This document shows positions 23,000 through 54,040 of a stretch of DNA of 64,000 bases, one piece after another; positions within the stretch are counted from its first letter, which is position 1, and each line of letters starts with the position of its first letter. The DNA is from the human T2T-CHM13v2.0 reference genome, Homo sapiens: assembly GCF_009914755.1 (NCBI RefSeq), contig NC_060943.1; one strand, written 5' to 3'. The notes beneath the pieces are model-generated. The model had not been told where the DNA came from. It saw only the letters and a program-made list of their open reading frames with translations, and ran no database searches. The translations under genes were made by a program, and so were the position numbers.

Positions 23000-24400
23000 C
23001 ATCACACTTGTGGTCCACCTAGTCTTCCCTCCTTCCCCTTGCACACCCCTGACCTTCCTACTCCCTTCCTCTAATCCCCAGAACTAGGGTGGACGTTTGG
23101 CCACGTTCCCATCACACTTCCGGTCCTCCGAGTTTCCCTCCCCTCCCTGACCTTGAGTGGACACTTGGCCCTGTCCACCCTCACTTTCAGGCAGGACCCA
23201 TCTCCCAGAAACATAAGTGCCGTCAGTCCCAACTCCTGCACACTTCCGGCTCTCCCAGTCCTCCCCTTCTTTCTCGACTTTGAAACTGGTGGAACTTCAG
23301 TACCTCTCCCCACTCCCCCCGCGACTTCCGTCTTCCAGTCCCCCTCCTTCCCCAAAAGTTGTGTGGACTCTAGCCCCGCCTCCTACATTCTCCCCGCCCT
23401 CCCTGTCCCCGCCCCTCCACCCAGATGGACGGCCAGTTAGGCCCGCCCCCTGCACTTCCGGCCCTACCCGCCCTTCCTCTTCCCAAGGGACGTCATAATT
23501 AATCCCGCCCCCACCGCCACCCAACCAAGCATCACCCATTCCAGCACTTCCGGCCTGACCCCTGTCCAGCGCCTTTCCTTTCTCCAGCTTCTGCTCTGCC
23601 CCAAGAGTGGTCGCCTTCGTGGCAGGGCACGACTCTCTCCCAGCTCGGGTCGCCGCCCACATTAGTGTGGGGCCCTGCGGCCTAGCGTCCCTCACCAGAG
23701 GCCTCCCCTTGCCTAGCTGGACCGCCGAGGGACATCGACGAGTATCCTCCTCCTGCTGTCCCCGGCTTCGCCTGCCGCCCCTAACCGGCCAGTCAAGATG
23801 GCCGCCGCTGGGTGAGGCAAGCTGGCGCGCCGCGGGGGCGTCTGGGAGTTGTAGTTCGGGACGGCGGGCTGACGCACTTCGCCGCCGGCCGACGGGCGCC
23901 ATTGTGCGGCGCGCGCCGGGTGAGTGCCGCGCGAAACCTGCGTCCGTCGGGGGCTGCGCTGGGCGGGTCCAGAACCGTTAGTTGGGGGCGAGCGCGGCCT
24001 CTGCATTTTCCGCCGAGCTCGGGTACCCTGAGCCGGCCGTGCCTGCAGTCCTCCCGCCGCTCTGTGGGATGGGGTCGGTGACCCGGAACCCCGAGGGGAG
24101 ACAGTGCTTTCGGGGCGCCGCGGTGGAGAGAACAGATCGCCTCCGGAAGCGTGGGGTCTGGGCCAGGGAGGCGATCCCCTCCGATGCGCGGGACAGAGGA
24201 GGCTCGGTGTCCTCTCGGGGAGGGGAAAACTGGTCCTATCCAGTCCTGTGGGAGTCCTATGACTCACTCTGGGCGTTTTCCAGTTTGGGTGGACTTGTCA
24301 TTTCCCGCTGAGGGAGCCGTTCCTGGGCGGAGGCTGCGGTAGCTCCCCAGCGGACACCTTAAGCCTCTCCCTCCCCTCCCAACTTCGGTTTCCTCAGGAC
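23000..24400 (+). promoter_or_regulatory. ZNF274: CpG-island promoter of ZNF274
   Basis: GC/CpG-rich. ETS/GABPA cores CACTTCCGG at 23115, 23241, 23453, 23545; GC boxes (CCCCGCCC/CCCGCCC) 23370-23510; YY1 motif CAAGATGGCCGCC 23794-23806; ZNF143/SBS motif TCTGGGAGTTGTAGT 23841-23855; CGCCATTGT 23897-23905. Confidence 0.9.
23800..23919 (+). other. ZNF274: ZNF274 non-coding exon 1 (5' end approximate)
   Basis: Strong donor CGG|GTGAGT at 23919/23920 inside the CpG island; next acceptor tttcctcAG ends at 24397. Confidence 0.75.
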
Positions 24401-24442
24401 TCTGCCCACTTCCACCAGAGACACATTGAGAAGGAGGAAACT

Positions 24443-24475
24443 ATGGCCTCCAGGCTTCCGACGGCCTGGTCCTGT
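24443..24475 (+). CDS. ZNF274: ZNF274 coding part of exon 2 (exon 24398-24475), MASRLPTAWSC
   Basis: Acceptor AG ends 24397; Kozak-type actATGG at 24443; donor GTGAGT at 24476; phase 0. Confidence 0.93.
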
Positions 24476-26183
24476 GTGAGTAGAGGCTTCCTTCAGCTTT
24501 TGAGTCCGCTACTGCACCTGGGAGGATGCGGATGGTGGTGAGATACCACCTTCCCTGAGATACCCCCATCCTCCAGAGCACCTCGGGGAGGGGGTAGAGA
24601 TTGGTTGGGCATGAGAGATCCTGCGTGATGGTGGAACCGCAGGTTGCTTGGTTTTCCAAGGGTGTAGTTAGAATAGAGACCAGATTGTAGGGGCTTCTGA
24701 AGGCCAGGTTAAGGCTCTTGCTTGTATCCTTTATATTGGGAAGAGTAATTGACAGGTCTTTGTTTGTTTTTTGTTTTTTGAGATGGAGTCTCCCTCTGTC
24801 GCCCAGGCTGGAGTGCAGTGGCGCGATCTTGGCTCACTGCAACCTCCGCCTCCTGGGTTCAAGTGATTCTCCTGCCTCAGCCTCCCCGAGTAGCTGGGAC
24901 TACAGGCGTGTGCCACCATACCCAGCTAATTTTTTTTTTATTTTTATTTTTTGTGTGTGTTTTTTGTGGAGACGGGGTTTCACCATGTTGGCCAGGCTGG
25001 TCTGGAACTCTTGACCTAAGGTGATCCGACCATCTCGGCCTCCCAAAGGTCTATGCAGGGATCAGGCTTATGTTTAGATTTCAGCAGATAAATTGGCATC
25101 AAGCAAGAGGTGACAGCAGCAGAGTTCAATAACAAGTAGAAAAGACAGGTGAGGATGGATCCCTGACAGGTGAAGGAGATAGAAAGAAGCATCAGGGCCC
25201 TGGGTAGGGGCTGACGGCTTGGGTGTGATGGTGCAGCTCAGAGAATTCCCTAGGAGGCATACGCACCACTCCCAAAGTCAGAATTTTCAAATGAATAAGA
25301 AATAGGGGGCCGGGCGCGGTGGCTCACGTCTGTAATCCCAGCACTTTGGGAGGCCGAGGCAGGTGGATCACGAGGTCAGGAGATTGAGACCATCCTGGCT
25401 AACATAGTGAAACCCCGTCTCTACTTAAAAAAATACAAAAAATTAGCCGGGCGTGGTGGCGGGCGCCTGTAGTCCCAGCTACTCGGGAGGCTGAGGCAGG
25501 AGAATGGCGTGAACCGGGGAGGCGGAGCTTGCAGTGAGCCGAGATGGCGCCACTGCACTCCAGCCTGGGCGACAGAGAGAGACTCCGTCTCAAAAAAAAA
25601 AGAAAAGAAAAATAGGGCCGGGTGCGGTGGCTCACATGTGTAATCCCAGCACTTTGGGAGGCCGAGGCAGGCAGATCACAAGGTCAGGAGTTCGAGACCA
25701 GCCTGACCAACATGGTGAAACCCCATCTCTACTAAAAATACAAAAATTAGCCGGGCATGGTGGTATGCGCCTGTAATCCCAGCTACTCAGGAGGCTGAGG
25801 CGGGAGAATCGCTTGAACCTGGGAGGTGGAGGCTGCAGTGAGCCAAGATTGCGCCACTGCACTCCACTAGGAGACAGAGTGAGACTCTGTCTCAAAACAA
25901 TAGATAAATAAATTAAATAAATAAATAAATAAATAAAATGGACAGATTTTCATATGCTACAGAGATCTCATGTGTTGCTCTCCTTATTGTAACCTGAATA
26001 GAGTCAAGCTTGGGTTTGCTTGGGGTTTCAGACAAAGACAGGAACTCAGGATGAGACTCCCAAAATGCCCTTGGGTCATCTTGTAGACCATTCTGTGCTT
26101 TCACTGGCCTGGTCAGCCTCCCCTGTCTTTCTTTTGTCGTGGATGCGGATGGCCTGTGGCTGAACAAGAATCTGGATTTTTAG

Positions 26184-52021: not shown

Positions 52022-52148
52022 GAGCCAGTGACCTTCCAGGATGTGGCTGTGGACTTCAGCCGGGAGGAGTGGGGGCTGCTGGGCCCGACACAGAGGACCG
52101 AGTACCGCGATGTGATGCTGGAGACCTTTGGGCACCTGGTCTCTGTGG
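52022..52148 (+). CDS. ZNF274: ZNF274 exon 7, second KRAB-A box
   Basis: 127 nt, [42 protein letters not shown]; cAG acceptor and GTAAG donor. Confidence 0.96.
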
Positions 52149-52622
52149 GTAAGGCTGTGCCCCCTCTTCACCCACCTCAGGGCTGGTAGGCCACAGGAGC
52201 CCCAAGTCAGGGGTGTTCACCTTCTCTAGACTCCACACTGGGCATTCCCTCAAGGGGCCCTTGCTGCATCCAGGGCCTGTAAGTGGAACTGTAGACCTAG
52301 AGGGGTGAGGTCACTGGGTGGCCAGAAGCAGCCTTAGGTCCGGTGAAGGAGTGATTTGCTATCTATCTCCTGAGGGAGTATGAGAGAACAGGAACTCGAA
52401 GAGCTCGGAGGACACTCCCTGCCCTTCCTGTCCCTTGTTCACCAAGGTCAGTGCTCCCCTCCCTGCCGCTTCATTGCTTTTCAGTCTCTCTCCAGGTTGC
52501 ATGACTCTATTTGGGAGAAAAAAAAAATCCTGACTTTTGAACTTAATTATGCATTTCATGCTCTCAGACCCATCCCAGCACATCTCTCTATGGGATCCAC
52601 ATCTTTTGTTTATTTTTTTCAG

Positions 52623-53605
52623 GGTGGGAGACTACACTGGAAAATAAAGAGTTAGCTCCAAATTCTGACATTCCTGAGGAAGAACCAGCCCCCAGCCTGA
52701 AAGTACAAGAATCCTCAAGGGATTGTGCCTTGTCCTCTACATTAGAAGATACCTTGCAGGGTGGGGTCCAGGAAGTCCAAGACACAGTGTTGAAGCAGAT
52801 GGAGTCTGCTCAGGAAAAAGACCTTCCTCAGAAGAAGCACTTTGACAACCGTGAGTCCCAGGCAAACAGTGGTGCTCTTGACACAAACCAAGTTTCGCTC
52901 CAGAAAATTGACAACCCTGAGTCCCAGGCAAACAGTGGCGCTCTTGACACAAACCAAGTTTTGCTCCACAAAATTCCTCCTAGAAAACGATTGCGCAAAC
53001 GTGACTCACAAGTTAAAAGTATGAAACATAATTCACGTGTAAAAATTCATCAGAAGAGCTGTGAAAGGCAAAAGGCCAAGGAAGGCAATGGTTGTAGGAA
53101 AACCTTCAGTCGGAGTACTAAACAGATTACGTTTATAAGAATTCACAAGGGGAGCCAAGTTTGCCGATGCAGTGAATGTGGTAAAATATTCCGGAACCCA
53201 AGATACTTTTCTGTGCATAAGAAAATCCATACCGGAGAGAGGCCCTATGTGTGTCAAGACTGTGGGAAAGGATTTGTTCAGAGCTCTTCCCTCACACAGC
53301 ATCAGAGAGTTCATTCTGGAGAGAGACCATTTGAATGTCAGGAGTGTGGGAGGACCTTCAATGATCGCTCAGCCATCTCCCAGCACCTGAGGACTCACAC
53401 TGGCGCTAAGCCCTACAAGTGTCAGGACTGTGGAAAAGCCTTCCGCCAGAGCTCCCACCTCATCAGACATCAGAGGACTCACACCGGGGAGCGCCCATAT
53501 GCATGCAACAAATGTGGAAAGGCCTTCACCCAGAGCTCACACCTTATTGGGCACCAGAGAACCCACAATAGGACAAAGCGAAAGAAGAAACAGCCTACCT
53601 CATAG
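52623..53605 (+). CDS. ZNF274: ZNF274 exon 8 coding part: spacer, 5 C2H2 fingers, basic C-terminus
   Basis: tttttttcAG acceptor; five CxxC...HxxxH fingers with TGERP/TGAKP-type linkers; TAG at 53603-53605. Coding exons total 33+127+96+483+113+127+983 = 1962 nt = 653 aa + stop. Confidence 0.97.
52842..52973 (+). repeat. ZNF274: 66-bp in-frame tandem duplication in the ZNF274 spacer
   Basis: 52842-52907 vs 52908-52973, 4 mismatches. Confidence 0.95.
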
Positions 53606-54040
53606 CTCTCAAGCCAGTTGAAGAAACCTTGCCTTTTCAGCTTGACCCTGCAATATAACATGCACAGGCCTGCTTGTGAATCAGGACTGAATGTGAAAGG
53701 GAAGTATTGAGTGAGGACATTCCCAAAACCAAAGGACAACTGAGGAGACTGCCCAGCACATAATGAATAAATAAGAAAATGAGTGAGGAGTTATTAACAT
53801 CATTTGGAAAAAAGATTTCCCATTCACTTGATATTGTTTGTTCACTCATTTAGTCATTAAAAGTGAGATTAATAAAATCTGAAAATGTTATATAATAACT
53901 TTAAAAAGCCAGGTAATTAATAATCTGCACTGATATTACATCCACAGTACCACAGTATTTATGTGTATGAATTAAGGATTAAAAGATAATGTGGATAAAT
54001 AAACTATTGATCTATGTCTGTGTAGAACCTGTGTATTTCC
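53606..54040 (+). terminator. ZNF274: ZNF274 3' UTR and polyadenylation signals
   Basis: AATAAA at 53766, 53871 and 53998; the last is followed by a GT-rich element (tgtctgtgtag...tgtgtattt). Confidence 0.75.

What the first reader, a model, noticed from the sequence alone, without database searches (positions are those of the whole stretch)
23800..54040. ZNF274 looks like a fusion of two tandem ZNF genes
Seen in sequence: module 1 is a CpG promoter, ATG exon, KRAB-A, KRAB-B, then a dead spacer/finger exon with its own AATAAA (35.8-37.85 kb). Module 2 is a second CpG promoter (44.3-45.25 kb), a SCAN exon with an internal Met about 50 aa before the SCAN domain, a linker, KRAB-A and 5 fingers. 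Established: ordinary KRAB-ZNF genes run KRAB-A/KRAB-B/finger exon, ZKSCAN genes run SCAN/KRAB/fingers, and KRAB-SCAN-KRAB order is exceptional. Inference: the upstream gene's phase-1 KRAB-B donor now skips its own finger exon and splices into the downstream gene's first coding exon, turning 59 nt of former 5' UTR (47180-47238) into coding sequence. I cannot tell from here whether this origin has already been described.
Basis: partly seen in the sequence, partly recalled or inferred. Interest (0 to 1): 0.85.

Follow-up and report, generated by a model that had tools for sequence, protein, structure and literature searches.

The report
ZNF274: probable ancient two-gene fusion
The long intron of human ZNF274 holds the decayed zinc-finger exon of one gene and a CpG island that looks like the promoter of another, so this important repressor probably arose when two neighbouring zinc-finger genes became spliced into one before placental mammals diverged.

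Summary
Module 1 is a CpG island, an ATG exon, KRAB-A and KRAB-B. Module 2 is a second CpG island (44.25-45.0 kb), a SCAN exon with an in-frame Met 59 nt inside it, a linker exon, KRAB-A and five fingers.

Intron 4 carries a decayed C2H2 finger array on the gene's strand at about 37.3-37.85 kb. A DNA profile gave E 1e-5 to 1e-2, 0 of 30 shuffles matched that, and 31 of 58 unrelated finger proteins hit it.

Two details are not supported: the "spacer" from 35.8 kb, and any weight on the AATAAA.

The fusion reading fits best (about 0.6), but the evidence is circumstantial:
- A second dead finger array lies at 6.5-7.7 kb, so such relics are common here.
- No annotated transcript starts at the inner CpG island.
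- The KRAB-A tree does not make KRAB1 and KRAB2 sisters, yet it cannot reject that either (AU p 0.47).
- Orthologues from all four placental superorders already have the KRAB-SCAN-KRAB form.
- No protein joining KRAB1 to other fingers was found, and no unfused outgroup.

Seven literature searches found the architecture described but no account of its origin. I rate it a new member of a known kind, of moderate interest.

The parts
23251..24500 (.). CpG island 1, the promoter region of ZNF274 (module 1)
   Evidence: 500-base windows have GC 0.63-0.71 and CpG o/e 0.64-0.97. The annotated first exons and RefSeq enhancer elements lie here (gene table).
24398..24475 (+). ATG exon of module 1 (ATG at 24443, 11 codons, ends in phase 0)
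   Evidence: Spliced translation.
26184..26310 (+). KRAB1 A-box exon (127 nt, phase 0 to 1)
   Evidence: Pfam KRAB at 86.1 bits. All 435 KRAB queries hit it.
27422..27517 (+). KRAB1 B-box exon (96 nt, phase 1 to 1). Its donor now joins the SCAN exon.
   Evidence: One search gives the phases. 138 of 435 KRAB-plus-80-aa queries reach it. ZFP69-family proteins align across 65-90% of residues 1-105, which extends beyond the A box. Pfam has no B-box model (0 families).
37300..37850 (+). Decayed C2H2 finger array (at least 4 units found by profile, about 6-8 by eye) with stops, frameshifts and internal deletions. Proposed former terminal exon of module 1.
   Evidence: nhmmer hits at 37348-37736, E 1.1e-5 to 1.1e-2. 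0 of 30 shuffles reach E 0.011. tblastn hits from 31 of 58 finger proteins. Best tblastn match is 43.5 bits, 34% identity over 104 aa. Linker-like remnants are visible.
44251..45000 (.). CpG island 2, 2.2 kb upstream of the SCAN exon. Proposed promoter of module 2.
   Evidence: GC 0.61-0.65 and CpG o/e 0.74-0.84. Unique sequence with no tandem repeat or Rfam hit. No annotated exon here (gene table).
47180..47238 (+). 59 nt between the acceptor and the internal ATG. Coding in the fused mRNA, proposed former 5' UTR.
   Evidence: It is open in the frame set by a phase-1 donor. An in-frame stop lies 8 nt upstream of the acceptor in the intron.
47239..47662 (+). Met106, a 50-aa leader and the SCAN domain
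   Evidence: Pfam SCAN at 134.7 bits. Met is kept in 60 of 75 full-length orthologue clusters. 11 of 403 fetched proteins start exactly there.
50423..50535 (+). Linker exon (113 nt, phase 1 to 0)
   Evidence: No Pfam family.
52022..52148 (+). KRAB2 A-box exon (127 nt, phase 0 to 1), with no separate B-box exon
   Evidence: Pfam KRAB at 84.7 bits. Compared with KRAB1 it matches at 95 of 127 nt and 25 of 42 aa.
52623..53605 (+). Spacer and five C2H2 fingers (fingers at 53162-53566), then the stop codon

Best explanation
ZNF274 is a fixed read-through fusion of two same-strand neighbours in the 19q13.43 zinc-finger cluster.

The upstream parent was an ordinary KRAB(A+B) finger gene: CpG promoter, ATG exon, KRAB-A, KRAB-B and a finger exon. 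The downstream parent was an ordinary SCAN-KRAB finger gene: CpG promoter with a non-coding first exon, a SCAN exon carrying the start codon, a linker exon, KRAB-A and a finger exon.

Transcription from the upstream promoter ran on past its own finger exon. The phase-1 donor of KRAB-B then spliced to the pre-existing acceptor of the SCAN exon. The 59 nt before the old start codon happen to be open in that frame, so KRAB1 became joined in frame to the whole downstream protein.

The skipped finger exon then decayed in what is now intron 4. The downstream CpG island stayed unmethylated and may still drive KRAB1-less isoforms. The event predates the placental radiation.

Shown: the parts, their order, strand and phases, the fossil, the CpG island, and the fused form across placentals.
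Inferred: that the fossil once belonged to KRAB1, that the island was or is a promoter, and that an unfused state ever existed.
For: 1. Order and strand. Every part needed for two complete canonical genes is present on the + strand in the expected order.
2. The fossil is real. nhmmer gave E 1.1e-5 to 1.1e-2 with 0 of 30 shuffles as good, and 31 of 58 finger proteins hit it. It lies between the KRAB-B exon and the inner CpG island.
3. Counts match. The window holds exactly two KRAB-A boxes and three finger arrays. The intron-4 array has no KRAB remnant of its own that can be detected, and KRAB1 has no other fingers.
4. The fossil is more decayed than the array at 6.5-7.7 kb: best tblastn 43.5 against 79.3 bits, with more frameshifts. 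That fits an old loss.
5. The CpG island is genuine and unique, and lies 2.2 kb before the SCAN exon.
6. Phase arithmetic works: a phase-1 donor plus 59 nt reaches the in-frame ATG with no stop.
7. Eleven annotated protein clusters from ten genera start exactly at the Met106 position.
8. KRAB1 and KRAB2 each form a clade (SH-aLRT 95) and are not sisters in the free tree. 90 of 203 other KRAB-A boxes lie closer to KRAB1 than KRAB2 does.
9. Passages of PMC2999557 say the N-terminal KRAB is close to the ZNF10 type and binds KAP1 better than the second KRAB. That is as expected for domains of different origin.
Against: 1. Dead finger arrays are not rare here. A second one lies at 6.5-7.7 kb, also on the + strand and also without a detectable KRAB. 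An unrelated relic falling in a 19.7-kb intron is therefore not improbable.
2. None of the 12 RefSeq transcripts in the gene table has an exon in the inner CpG island. Another CpG island in the window (57-58 kb) sits at a lncRNA, so such islands need not be promoters of coding genes.
3. The AU test does not reject KRAB1 and KRAB2 as one clade (p 0.474). Forty-two columns cannot decide this.
4. No unfused state was found. The full-length orthologues read from Afrotheria, Xenarthra, Laurasiatheria and Euarchontoglires carry both KRABs, and 87 orthologue clusters show the K-S-K order. Of the 103 ZNF274-type rows listed, none joins KRAB1 to other fingers. The four without a SCAN domain carry ZNF274's own fingers or none.
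5. Met106 is replaced in 15 of 75 orthologue clusters. It is conserved no better than its neighbours, so it gives no independent sign of a former start codon.
6. No acceptor, spacer or poly-A site of the fossil exon can be shown.
Confidence: 0.6

Rival explanations
1. Capture of a 5' module only. A partial duplication placed just the promoter, ATG exon and KRAB-A/B exons of a KRAB finger gene upstream of a SCAN-KRAB finger gene. The finger relic in intron 4 is an unrelated dead gene fragment, like the one at 6.5-7.7 kb.
For: A second orphan finger array without a detectable KRAB lies in the same window on the same strand. No acceptor, spacer or poly-A site ties the intron-4 array to KRAB1. The best matches of the fossil are generic, at 30-37% identity to many unrelated finger proteins.
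Against: It needs two coincidences: a relic on the right strand in exactly the right interval, and a CpG island between that relic and the SCAN exon. It also leaves KRAB1 as a gene piece that never had fingers. The relic is the more decayed of the two arrays, as expected if it is as old as the fusion.
Confidence: 0.2
2. Internal duplication. KRAB1 arose from KRAB2, or the reverse, by duplication of a KRAB exon within a single ancestral SCAN-KRAB gene and later acquired a B box and an upstream promoter. No second gene was involved.
For: The AU test does not reject a KRAB1+KRAB2 clade (p 0.474, log-likelihood difference 1.9). Both A-box exons are 127 nt with the same phases. They match at 95 of 127 nt.
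Against: They are not sisters in the free tree. KRAB1's neighbour is a group of three double-KRAB finger proteins (SH-aLRT 84) and KRAB2's is another protein (75). Identity between the two, 25 of 42, is at the mean for unrelated KRAB boxes: 0.58 over 213 rows, and 74 of 233 others exceed it. The 127-nt size and phases are common to KRAB-A exons generally (recalled, established knowledge). This rival explains neither the separate B-box exon, nor the CpG island, nor the finger relic.
Confidence: 0.08
3. The relic is a later insertion into an already two-KRAB gene, either a retrocopy or a segmental copy of some finger gene. Alternatively it was an alternative terminal exon of one gene that was never independent.
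For: The cluster is rich in tandem duplicates. Nothing in the window dates the relic directly.
Against: There is no poly-A tract, no flanking direct repeats and no contiguous KRAB remnant upstream. Nothing else in the window resembles its flanks apart from an Alu. Its heavy decay, with internal deletions in several units, argues for great age.
Confidence: 0.07

Closest known systems
Transcription-mediated (read-through, 'conjoined') fusion of adjacent same-strand genes. The gene table lists an example next door, ZNF8-ERVK3-1.
   Same: The upstream gene's last internal donor skips its own terminal exon and joins the first acceptor of the downstream gene, and part of the former 5' UTR becomes coding.
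   Different: Here the fusion would be the only full-length product, fixed for about 100 million years. The skipped exon is dead and no separate upstream gene is left. Present-day conjoined transcripts coexist with both parent genes. The general mechanism is recalled; no paper on it was read.
Double-KRAB finger proteins ZNF333 and ZFP28
   Same: One protein carries two KRAB boxes of unlike type. PMC6745500 says each has one standard and one variant KRAB (passages). In the KRAB-A tree, KRAB1's nearest neighbours are three unnamed double-KRAB finger proteins.
   Different: Those have no SCAN domain between the KRABs. Their origin was not examined here.
SCAN-KRAB finger genes (ZKSCAN type)
   Same: Module 2 has their exon order: SCAN exon with the start codon, small linker exon, KRAB-A exon, finger exon. 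In the sample, the 9 of 16 non-orthologous SCAN proteins that have both domains and start with SCAN all place it before KRAB (patterns SK, SKSK, SKKSK and so on).
   Different: ZNF274 adds a KRAB A+B in front. Outside the ZNF274 orthologues only 2 of 16 SCAN proteins in that biased sample show K-S-K, and one of them (P0130) is named an NRIF homologue.
PGBD1, which gained a SCAN domain by fusion within a SCAN-rich cluster
   Same: It is a published case of domain gain by fusion with a neighbour in a SCAN gene cluster (PMC9538788, passage).
   Different: The partner there is a transposase gene, and no relic exon is described in the passage read.

Membership tests
Canonical KRAB finger gene (module 1) | KRAB-A on its own exon of about 127 nt, phase 0 to 1 | tested here: met
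   26184-26310 is 127 nt with Pfam KRAB at 86.1 bits.
Canonical KRAB finger gene (module 1) | Separate KRAB-B exon, phase 1 to 1 | tested here: met
   27422-27517 is 96 nt. It is aligned by KRAB A+B proteins of the ZFP69 family and by 138 of 435 extended KRAB queries. There is no Pfam model for the B box.
Canonical KRAB finger gene (module 1) | One large terminal exon with spacer, tandem fingers, stop and poly-A signal, entered in phase 1 | tested here: inconclusive
   Finger remnants are present downstream on the same strand. The acceptor, phase, spacer and poly-A site cannot be shown.
SCAN-KRAB finger gene (module 2) | SCAN exon that carries the start codon some tens of residues before the domain | tested here: met
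   An in-frame ATG lies 50 aa before the SCAN match. Protein models in other species start there.
SCAN-KRAB finger gene (module 2) | Own promoter with a non-coding first exon upstream of the SCAN exon | not testable with these tools
   A CpG island is present at 44.25-45.0 kb. There are no transcript-start data here and no annotated exon (gene table).
SCAN-KRAB finger gene (module 2) | KRAB-A then finger exon after SCAN | tested here: met
Fixed read-through gene fusion | Relic of the upstream gene's terminal exon inside the fusion intron | tested here: met
   Fossil array at 37.3-37.85 kb on the + strand. That it belonged to KRAB1 is inferred.
Fixed read-through gene fusion | An unfused state (two separate genes) in an outgroup or sister lineage | not testable with these tools
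   No mammalian genomes are held. The protein searches found none: the full-coverage rows among the 120 listed in each are placental and fused, or are isoforms.
Fixed read-through gene fusion | The two halves have different nearest relatives | tested here: inconclusive
   The free tree separates KRAB1 and KRAB2, but the AU test does not reject joining them (p 0.474).
Processed pseudogene (for the fossil) | Poly-A tail, target-site duplication, and intronless continuity of KRAB and fingers | tested here: not met
   No flanking direct repeats or A-tract. No KRAB remnant upstream. Great age could have erased them.

The most novel reading that the evidence does not exclude
At the base of placental mammals, an old SCAN-KRAB finger protein with a weak KAP1-binding KRAB gained a standard, strongly KAP1-binding KRAB A+B by swallowing its upstream neighbour. 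That single splice change created the factor that now lays SETDB1/KAP1 heterochromatin on zinc-finger gene clusters and tethers them at the nucleolus. The downstream gene's own CpG promoter survives in the intron and still makes a KRAB1-less form with a different, possibly opposing, activity.
Probability: 0.3. Interest if true: 0.65.

Novelty: new member of a known kind. Interest (0 to 1): 0.5.

Why it matters
ZNF274 is not just any finger gene. [quoted passage not shown] It also anchors clustered lineage-specific genes at the nucleolus through its SCAN domain, while its KRAB domains govern H3K9me3 deposition (PMC11397430). Passages of both papers were read.

A fusion origin would explain several things:
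- why ZNF274 alone combines a standard KRAB with a SCAN domain and a second, weaker KRAB;
- why the two KRABs differ in KAP1 binding;
- why isoforms with one KRAB exist.

It would also give a dated example of a new regulator made by splicing two tandem duplicates together, and it points to a testable internal promoter. The mechanism itself is well known, and the evidence here is circumstantial, so the interest is moderate.

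Tried and rejected
- **Pfam on the intron.** Pfam was run on three + frames of the whole of intron 4 with stops read as X. It found no zinc-finger or KRAB match. On short pieces the only match was zf-H2C2_2 at E 0.059. Protein profiles fail on this frameshifted relic; a 28-aa finger HMM gave one weak hit. The DNA profile and tblastn worked.
- **Representative-library search with KRAB1-A.** The ranking sums the scores of several KRABs, so 144 of the 150 listed proteins are multi-KRAB models. 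Single-KRAB relatives below about 85% identity fall off the list. It was of little use for finding nearest relatives, though its sequences fed the tree.
- **Search with the last exon.** The list was swamped by multi-finger proteins. Marsupial rows cover the fingers only, so it says nothing firm about a marsupial orthologue.
- **Linking the fossil to KRAB1's relatives by finger similarity.** The top scores are generic, with ZFP69-like proteins among many at 37-38 bits. No signal.
- **A KRAB2-like match at 42659-42745 (25.4 bits).** 9 of 40 shuffles reach that score, so it was dropped.
- **Weak SCAN-like matches on the minus strand** at 7.4 kb and 14.3 kb. Not significant and not pursued.
- **Conservation of Met106 and of the 20-aa ex-UTR linker.** Both are about as conserved as their neighbours (0.61-0.69), so this is uninformative.
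- **PMC3209298** on SCAN origins is not held.

Full report
**What is there**

The seven annotated coding parts of NM_133502 splice to an open 653-aa frame. Pfam places four features:
- a KRAB box on the 127-nt exon 26184-26310 (86.1 bits);
- a second KRAB box on the 127-nt exon 52022-52148 (84.7 bits);
- a SCAN domain at residues 71-159 of the 47180-47662 exon (134.7 bits);
- five C2H2 fingers at 53162-53566.

The 96-nt exon 27422-27517 has no Pfam model. It is aligned by the KRAB A+B region of ZFP69-family proteins and by 138 of 435 extended KRAB queries, so I accept it as a B box.

The KRAB-B exon ends in phase 1. The SCAN exon is entered in phase 1. The ATG at 47239-47241 lies 59 nt inside that exon, in frame, and 50 aa before the SCAN match.

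The window holds three CpG islands: 23.25-24.5 kb, 44.25-45.0 kb and 57.0-58.0 kb. The stretch 44400-45100 of the second has GC 0.63 and o/e 0.80, against 0.31 for the whole window. The middle island is unique sequence, with no tandem repeat and no Rfam family.

**The fossil**

I built a DNA profile from ZNF274's own five 84-nt finger units and searched the window with its own finger exon masked. It gave four collinear + strand hits in intron 4 at 37348-37736, with E 1.1e-5, 4e-5, 1.2e-3 and 1.1e-2. None of 30 dinucleotide shuffles gave any hit at E <= 0.011.

As an independent check, the finger regions of 58 unrelated multi-finger proteins were run by tblastn against the whole window at E <= 0.01. 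They mark only three places, all on the + strand:
- 6.5-7.7 kb, hit by 58 of 58;
- 37.3-37.9 kb, hit by 31 of 58 at 37.3-37.6 kb;
- the real fingers, hit by 58 of 58.

The units carry stops, frameshifts and internal deletions. Nothing except an Alu (36740-36989) is recognisable between 35.7 and 37.3 kb, so the exon cannot be said to start at 35.8 kb. One AATAAA at 37832 means nothing where AWTAAA occurs 171 times in 64 kb.

**Does the fossil belong to KRAB1?**

For:
- It lies on the gene's strand, after KRAB-B and before the inner CpG island.
- The window holds exactly two KRAB-A boxes by a DNA profile and by 435 protein queries. The fossil therefore has no detectable KRAB of its own, and KRAB1 has no other fingers.
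- It is more decayed than the other relic: best tblastn 43.5 against 79.3 bits.
- It shows no retrocopy marks.

Against:
- The other relic, at 6.5-7.7 kb, is also on the + strand and also lacks a detectable KRAB. Orphan finger arrays are therefore part of the local scenery. One falling in a 19.7-kb intron is not very unlikely.
- The fossil's best protein matches are generic.

**The two KRABs**

They share 95 of 127 nt and 25 of 42 aa. That is the average for unrelated KRAB boxes in my sample: mean 0.58 over 213 rows, and 74 of 233 others are closer to KRAB1 than KRAB2 is. That count includes a few misfiled orthologues.

I built a maximum-likelihood tree of 233 KRAB-A boxes. It used 15 orthologues for each KRAB plus 203 others, after dropping 2 of 235 rows for length.
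- KRAB1 and KRAB2 each form a clade (SH-aLRT 95) and are not sisters.
- KRAB1's neighbour is a trio of unnamed double-KRAB finger proteins (84).
- KRAB2's neighbour is another protein (75).
- The smallest clade holding both contains 135 of the 233 rows.
- Forcing the two together costs only 1.9 log-likelihood units (AU p 0.474).

So an internal duplication is neither supported nor excluded by 42 columns. The sample is biased, because it came from a search ranked by summed KRAB scores.

**Age and outgroups**

The protein databases hold eukaryotes. The SCAN exon finds ZNF274/NRIF homologues in all four placental superorders. The full-length ones I read all carry KRAB1(A+B), linker, SCAN, KRAB2 and five fingers. 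These include elephant, aardvark, tenrec, anteater, cow, fox, horse, shrew, tree shrew, lemur and human.

In the set fetched up to, 87 orthologue clusters read K-S-K. The fused form therefore predates the placental radiation.

A search with residues 1-105 gave 129 hits, of which the 120 best are listed. Of those, 103 are ZNF274-type and 17 are mostly of the ZFP69 family. None joins KRAB1 to a foreign finger array. The four ZNF274-type rows without a SCAN domain carry ZNF274's own fingers or none.

No marsupial orthologue appeared among the listed rows. Those lists are capped at 120 rows, and one search was swamped by multi-finger proteins, so this absence is weak evidence.

**The internal start**

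Eleven of 403 fetched proteins, from ten genera, start exactly at the Met106 position. This fits transcripts that lack the KRAB1 exons. The proteins cannot show where those transcripts begin.

Met106 is kept in 60 of 75 full-length orthologue clusters. It is no better conserved than the residues around it. None of the 12 RefSeq transcripts in the gene table has an exon in the inner CpG island.

**Reading**

Two same-strand neighbours were joined when the phase-1 KRAB-B donor came to use the SCAN exon's acceptor, and the skipped finger exon was left to decay.

The frame match needed some luck. By my arithmetic (inference) the chance was about one in three for phase, times about 0.4 for 19 stop-free codons. 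Selection would act only on a version that worked.

I put this reading at about 0.6. The rivals are capture of a 5' module with an unrelated relic (0.2), internal KRAB duplication (0.08), and a later insertion or a never-independent alternative exon (0.07).

**What is known**

The KRAB-SCAN-KRAB architecture is described in print, as is the stronger KAP1 binding of the first KRAB (PMC2999557 and PMC11397430, passages). PMC6745500 names ZNF333 and ZFP28 as having one standard and one variant KRAB (passage).

Seven full-text searches were run:
- ZNF274 + two KRAB;
- ZNF274 + gene fusion + KRAB + SCAN;
- KRAB-SCAN-KRAB (0 papers);
- ZNF274 + Zfp110 + KRAB;
- ZNF274 + isoform + alternative promoter;
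- a six-term KRAB, chimeric and read-through query;
- ZNF274 + opossum.

None turned up an account of the gene's origin. Subscription papers, including the original ZNF274 and NRIF gene papers and the SCAN reviews, are not in the library, and supplements were not opened. "Not in print" is therefore only as strong as those searches.

Read-through fusion of tandem genes is a known mechanism (recalled). This would be a new, old and functionally important member of that kind.

Noticed in passing
window 6500-7700 (+): A second decayed C2H2 finger array with at least 8 units, stops and frameshifts. It is not in the gene table and lies between ZNF329 and ZNF274. nhmmer E down to 2.4e-8, and 58 of 58 finger proteins hit it. 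No KRAB remnant was detected upstream within the window.
   Followed up: partly
window 57000-58000: A third CpG island (GC 0.55-0.63, o/e 0.68-0.84) at the 5' end of the minus-strand lncRNA LOC105372479 and beside RPS15AP36, 11 kb before the annotated start of ZNF544. It may be a bidirectional or alternative promoter.
   Followed up: no
window 54482-54598 (+): This stretch matches the C-terminal extension that follows KRAB2 in a dog NRIF-homologue isoform (P0033). The score is 31.2 bits and 0 of 40 shuffles reach it. It suggests an alternative 3' exon beyond the annotated human gene end that skips the finger exon in another species.
   Followed up: no
window 20238-20354 (-): Rfam Metazoa_SRP match at 70.6 bits, just at the gathering score of 70. 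Probably a 7SL/Alu-related fragment, a few hundred bases before the most upstream annotated ZNF274 exon start.
   Followed up: no
window 37261-37314 (+): Three tandem copies of an 18-nt unit (89-100% identical) directly 5' of the first recognisable fossil finger.
   Followed up: no
proteins P0080 (elephant), P0095 and P0090 (tenrecs): The linker and leader between KRAB-B and SCAN are expanded by internal repeats in afrotherian orthologues. In elephant the Met106 position reads R.
   Followed up: no
proteins P0277, P0279, P0285 (ZFP69 family): These are the nearest non-orthologous hits to KRAB1 A+B. By eye they carry what looks like a remnant of the C-terminal part of a SCAN domain before their KRAB. 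One of them (P0285) is picked up by the ZNF274 SCAN query. The upstream parent may itself descend from a SCAN-KRAB lineage.
   Followed up: partly
one search list: 144 of the 150 best representative proteins for a KRAB-A query carry two to six KRAB boxes. Many look like gene models that merge tandem genes, so multi-KRAB models are common in public protein sets.
   Followed up: no
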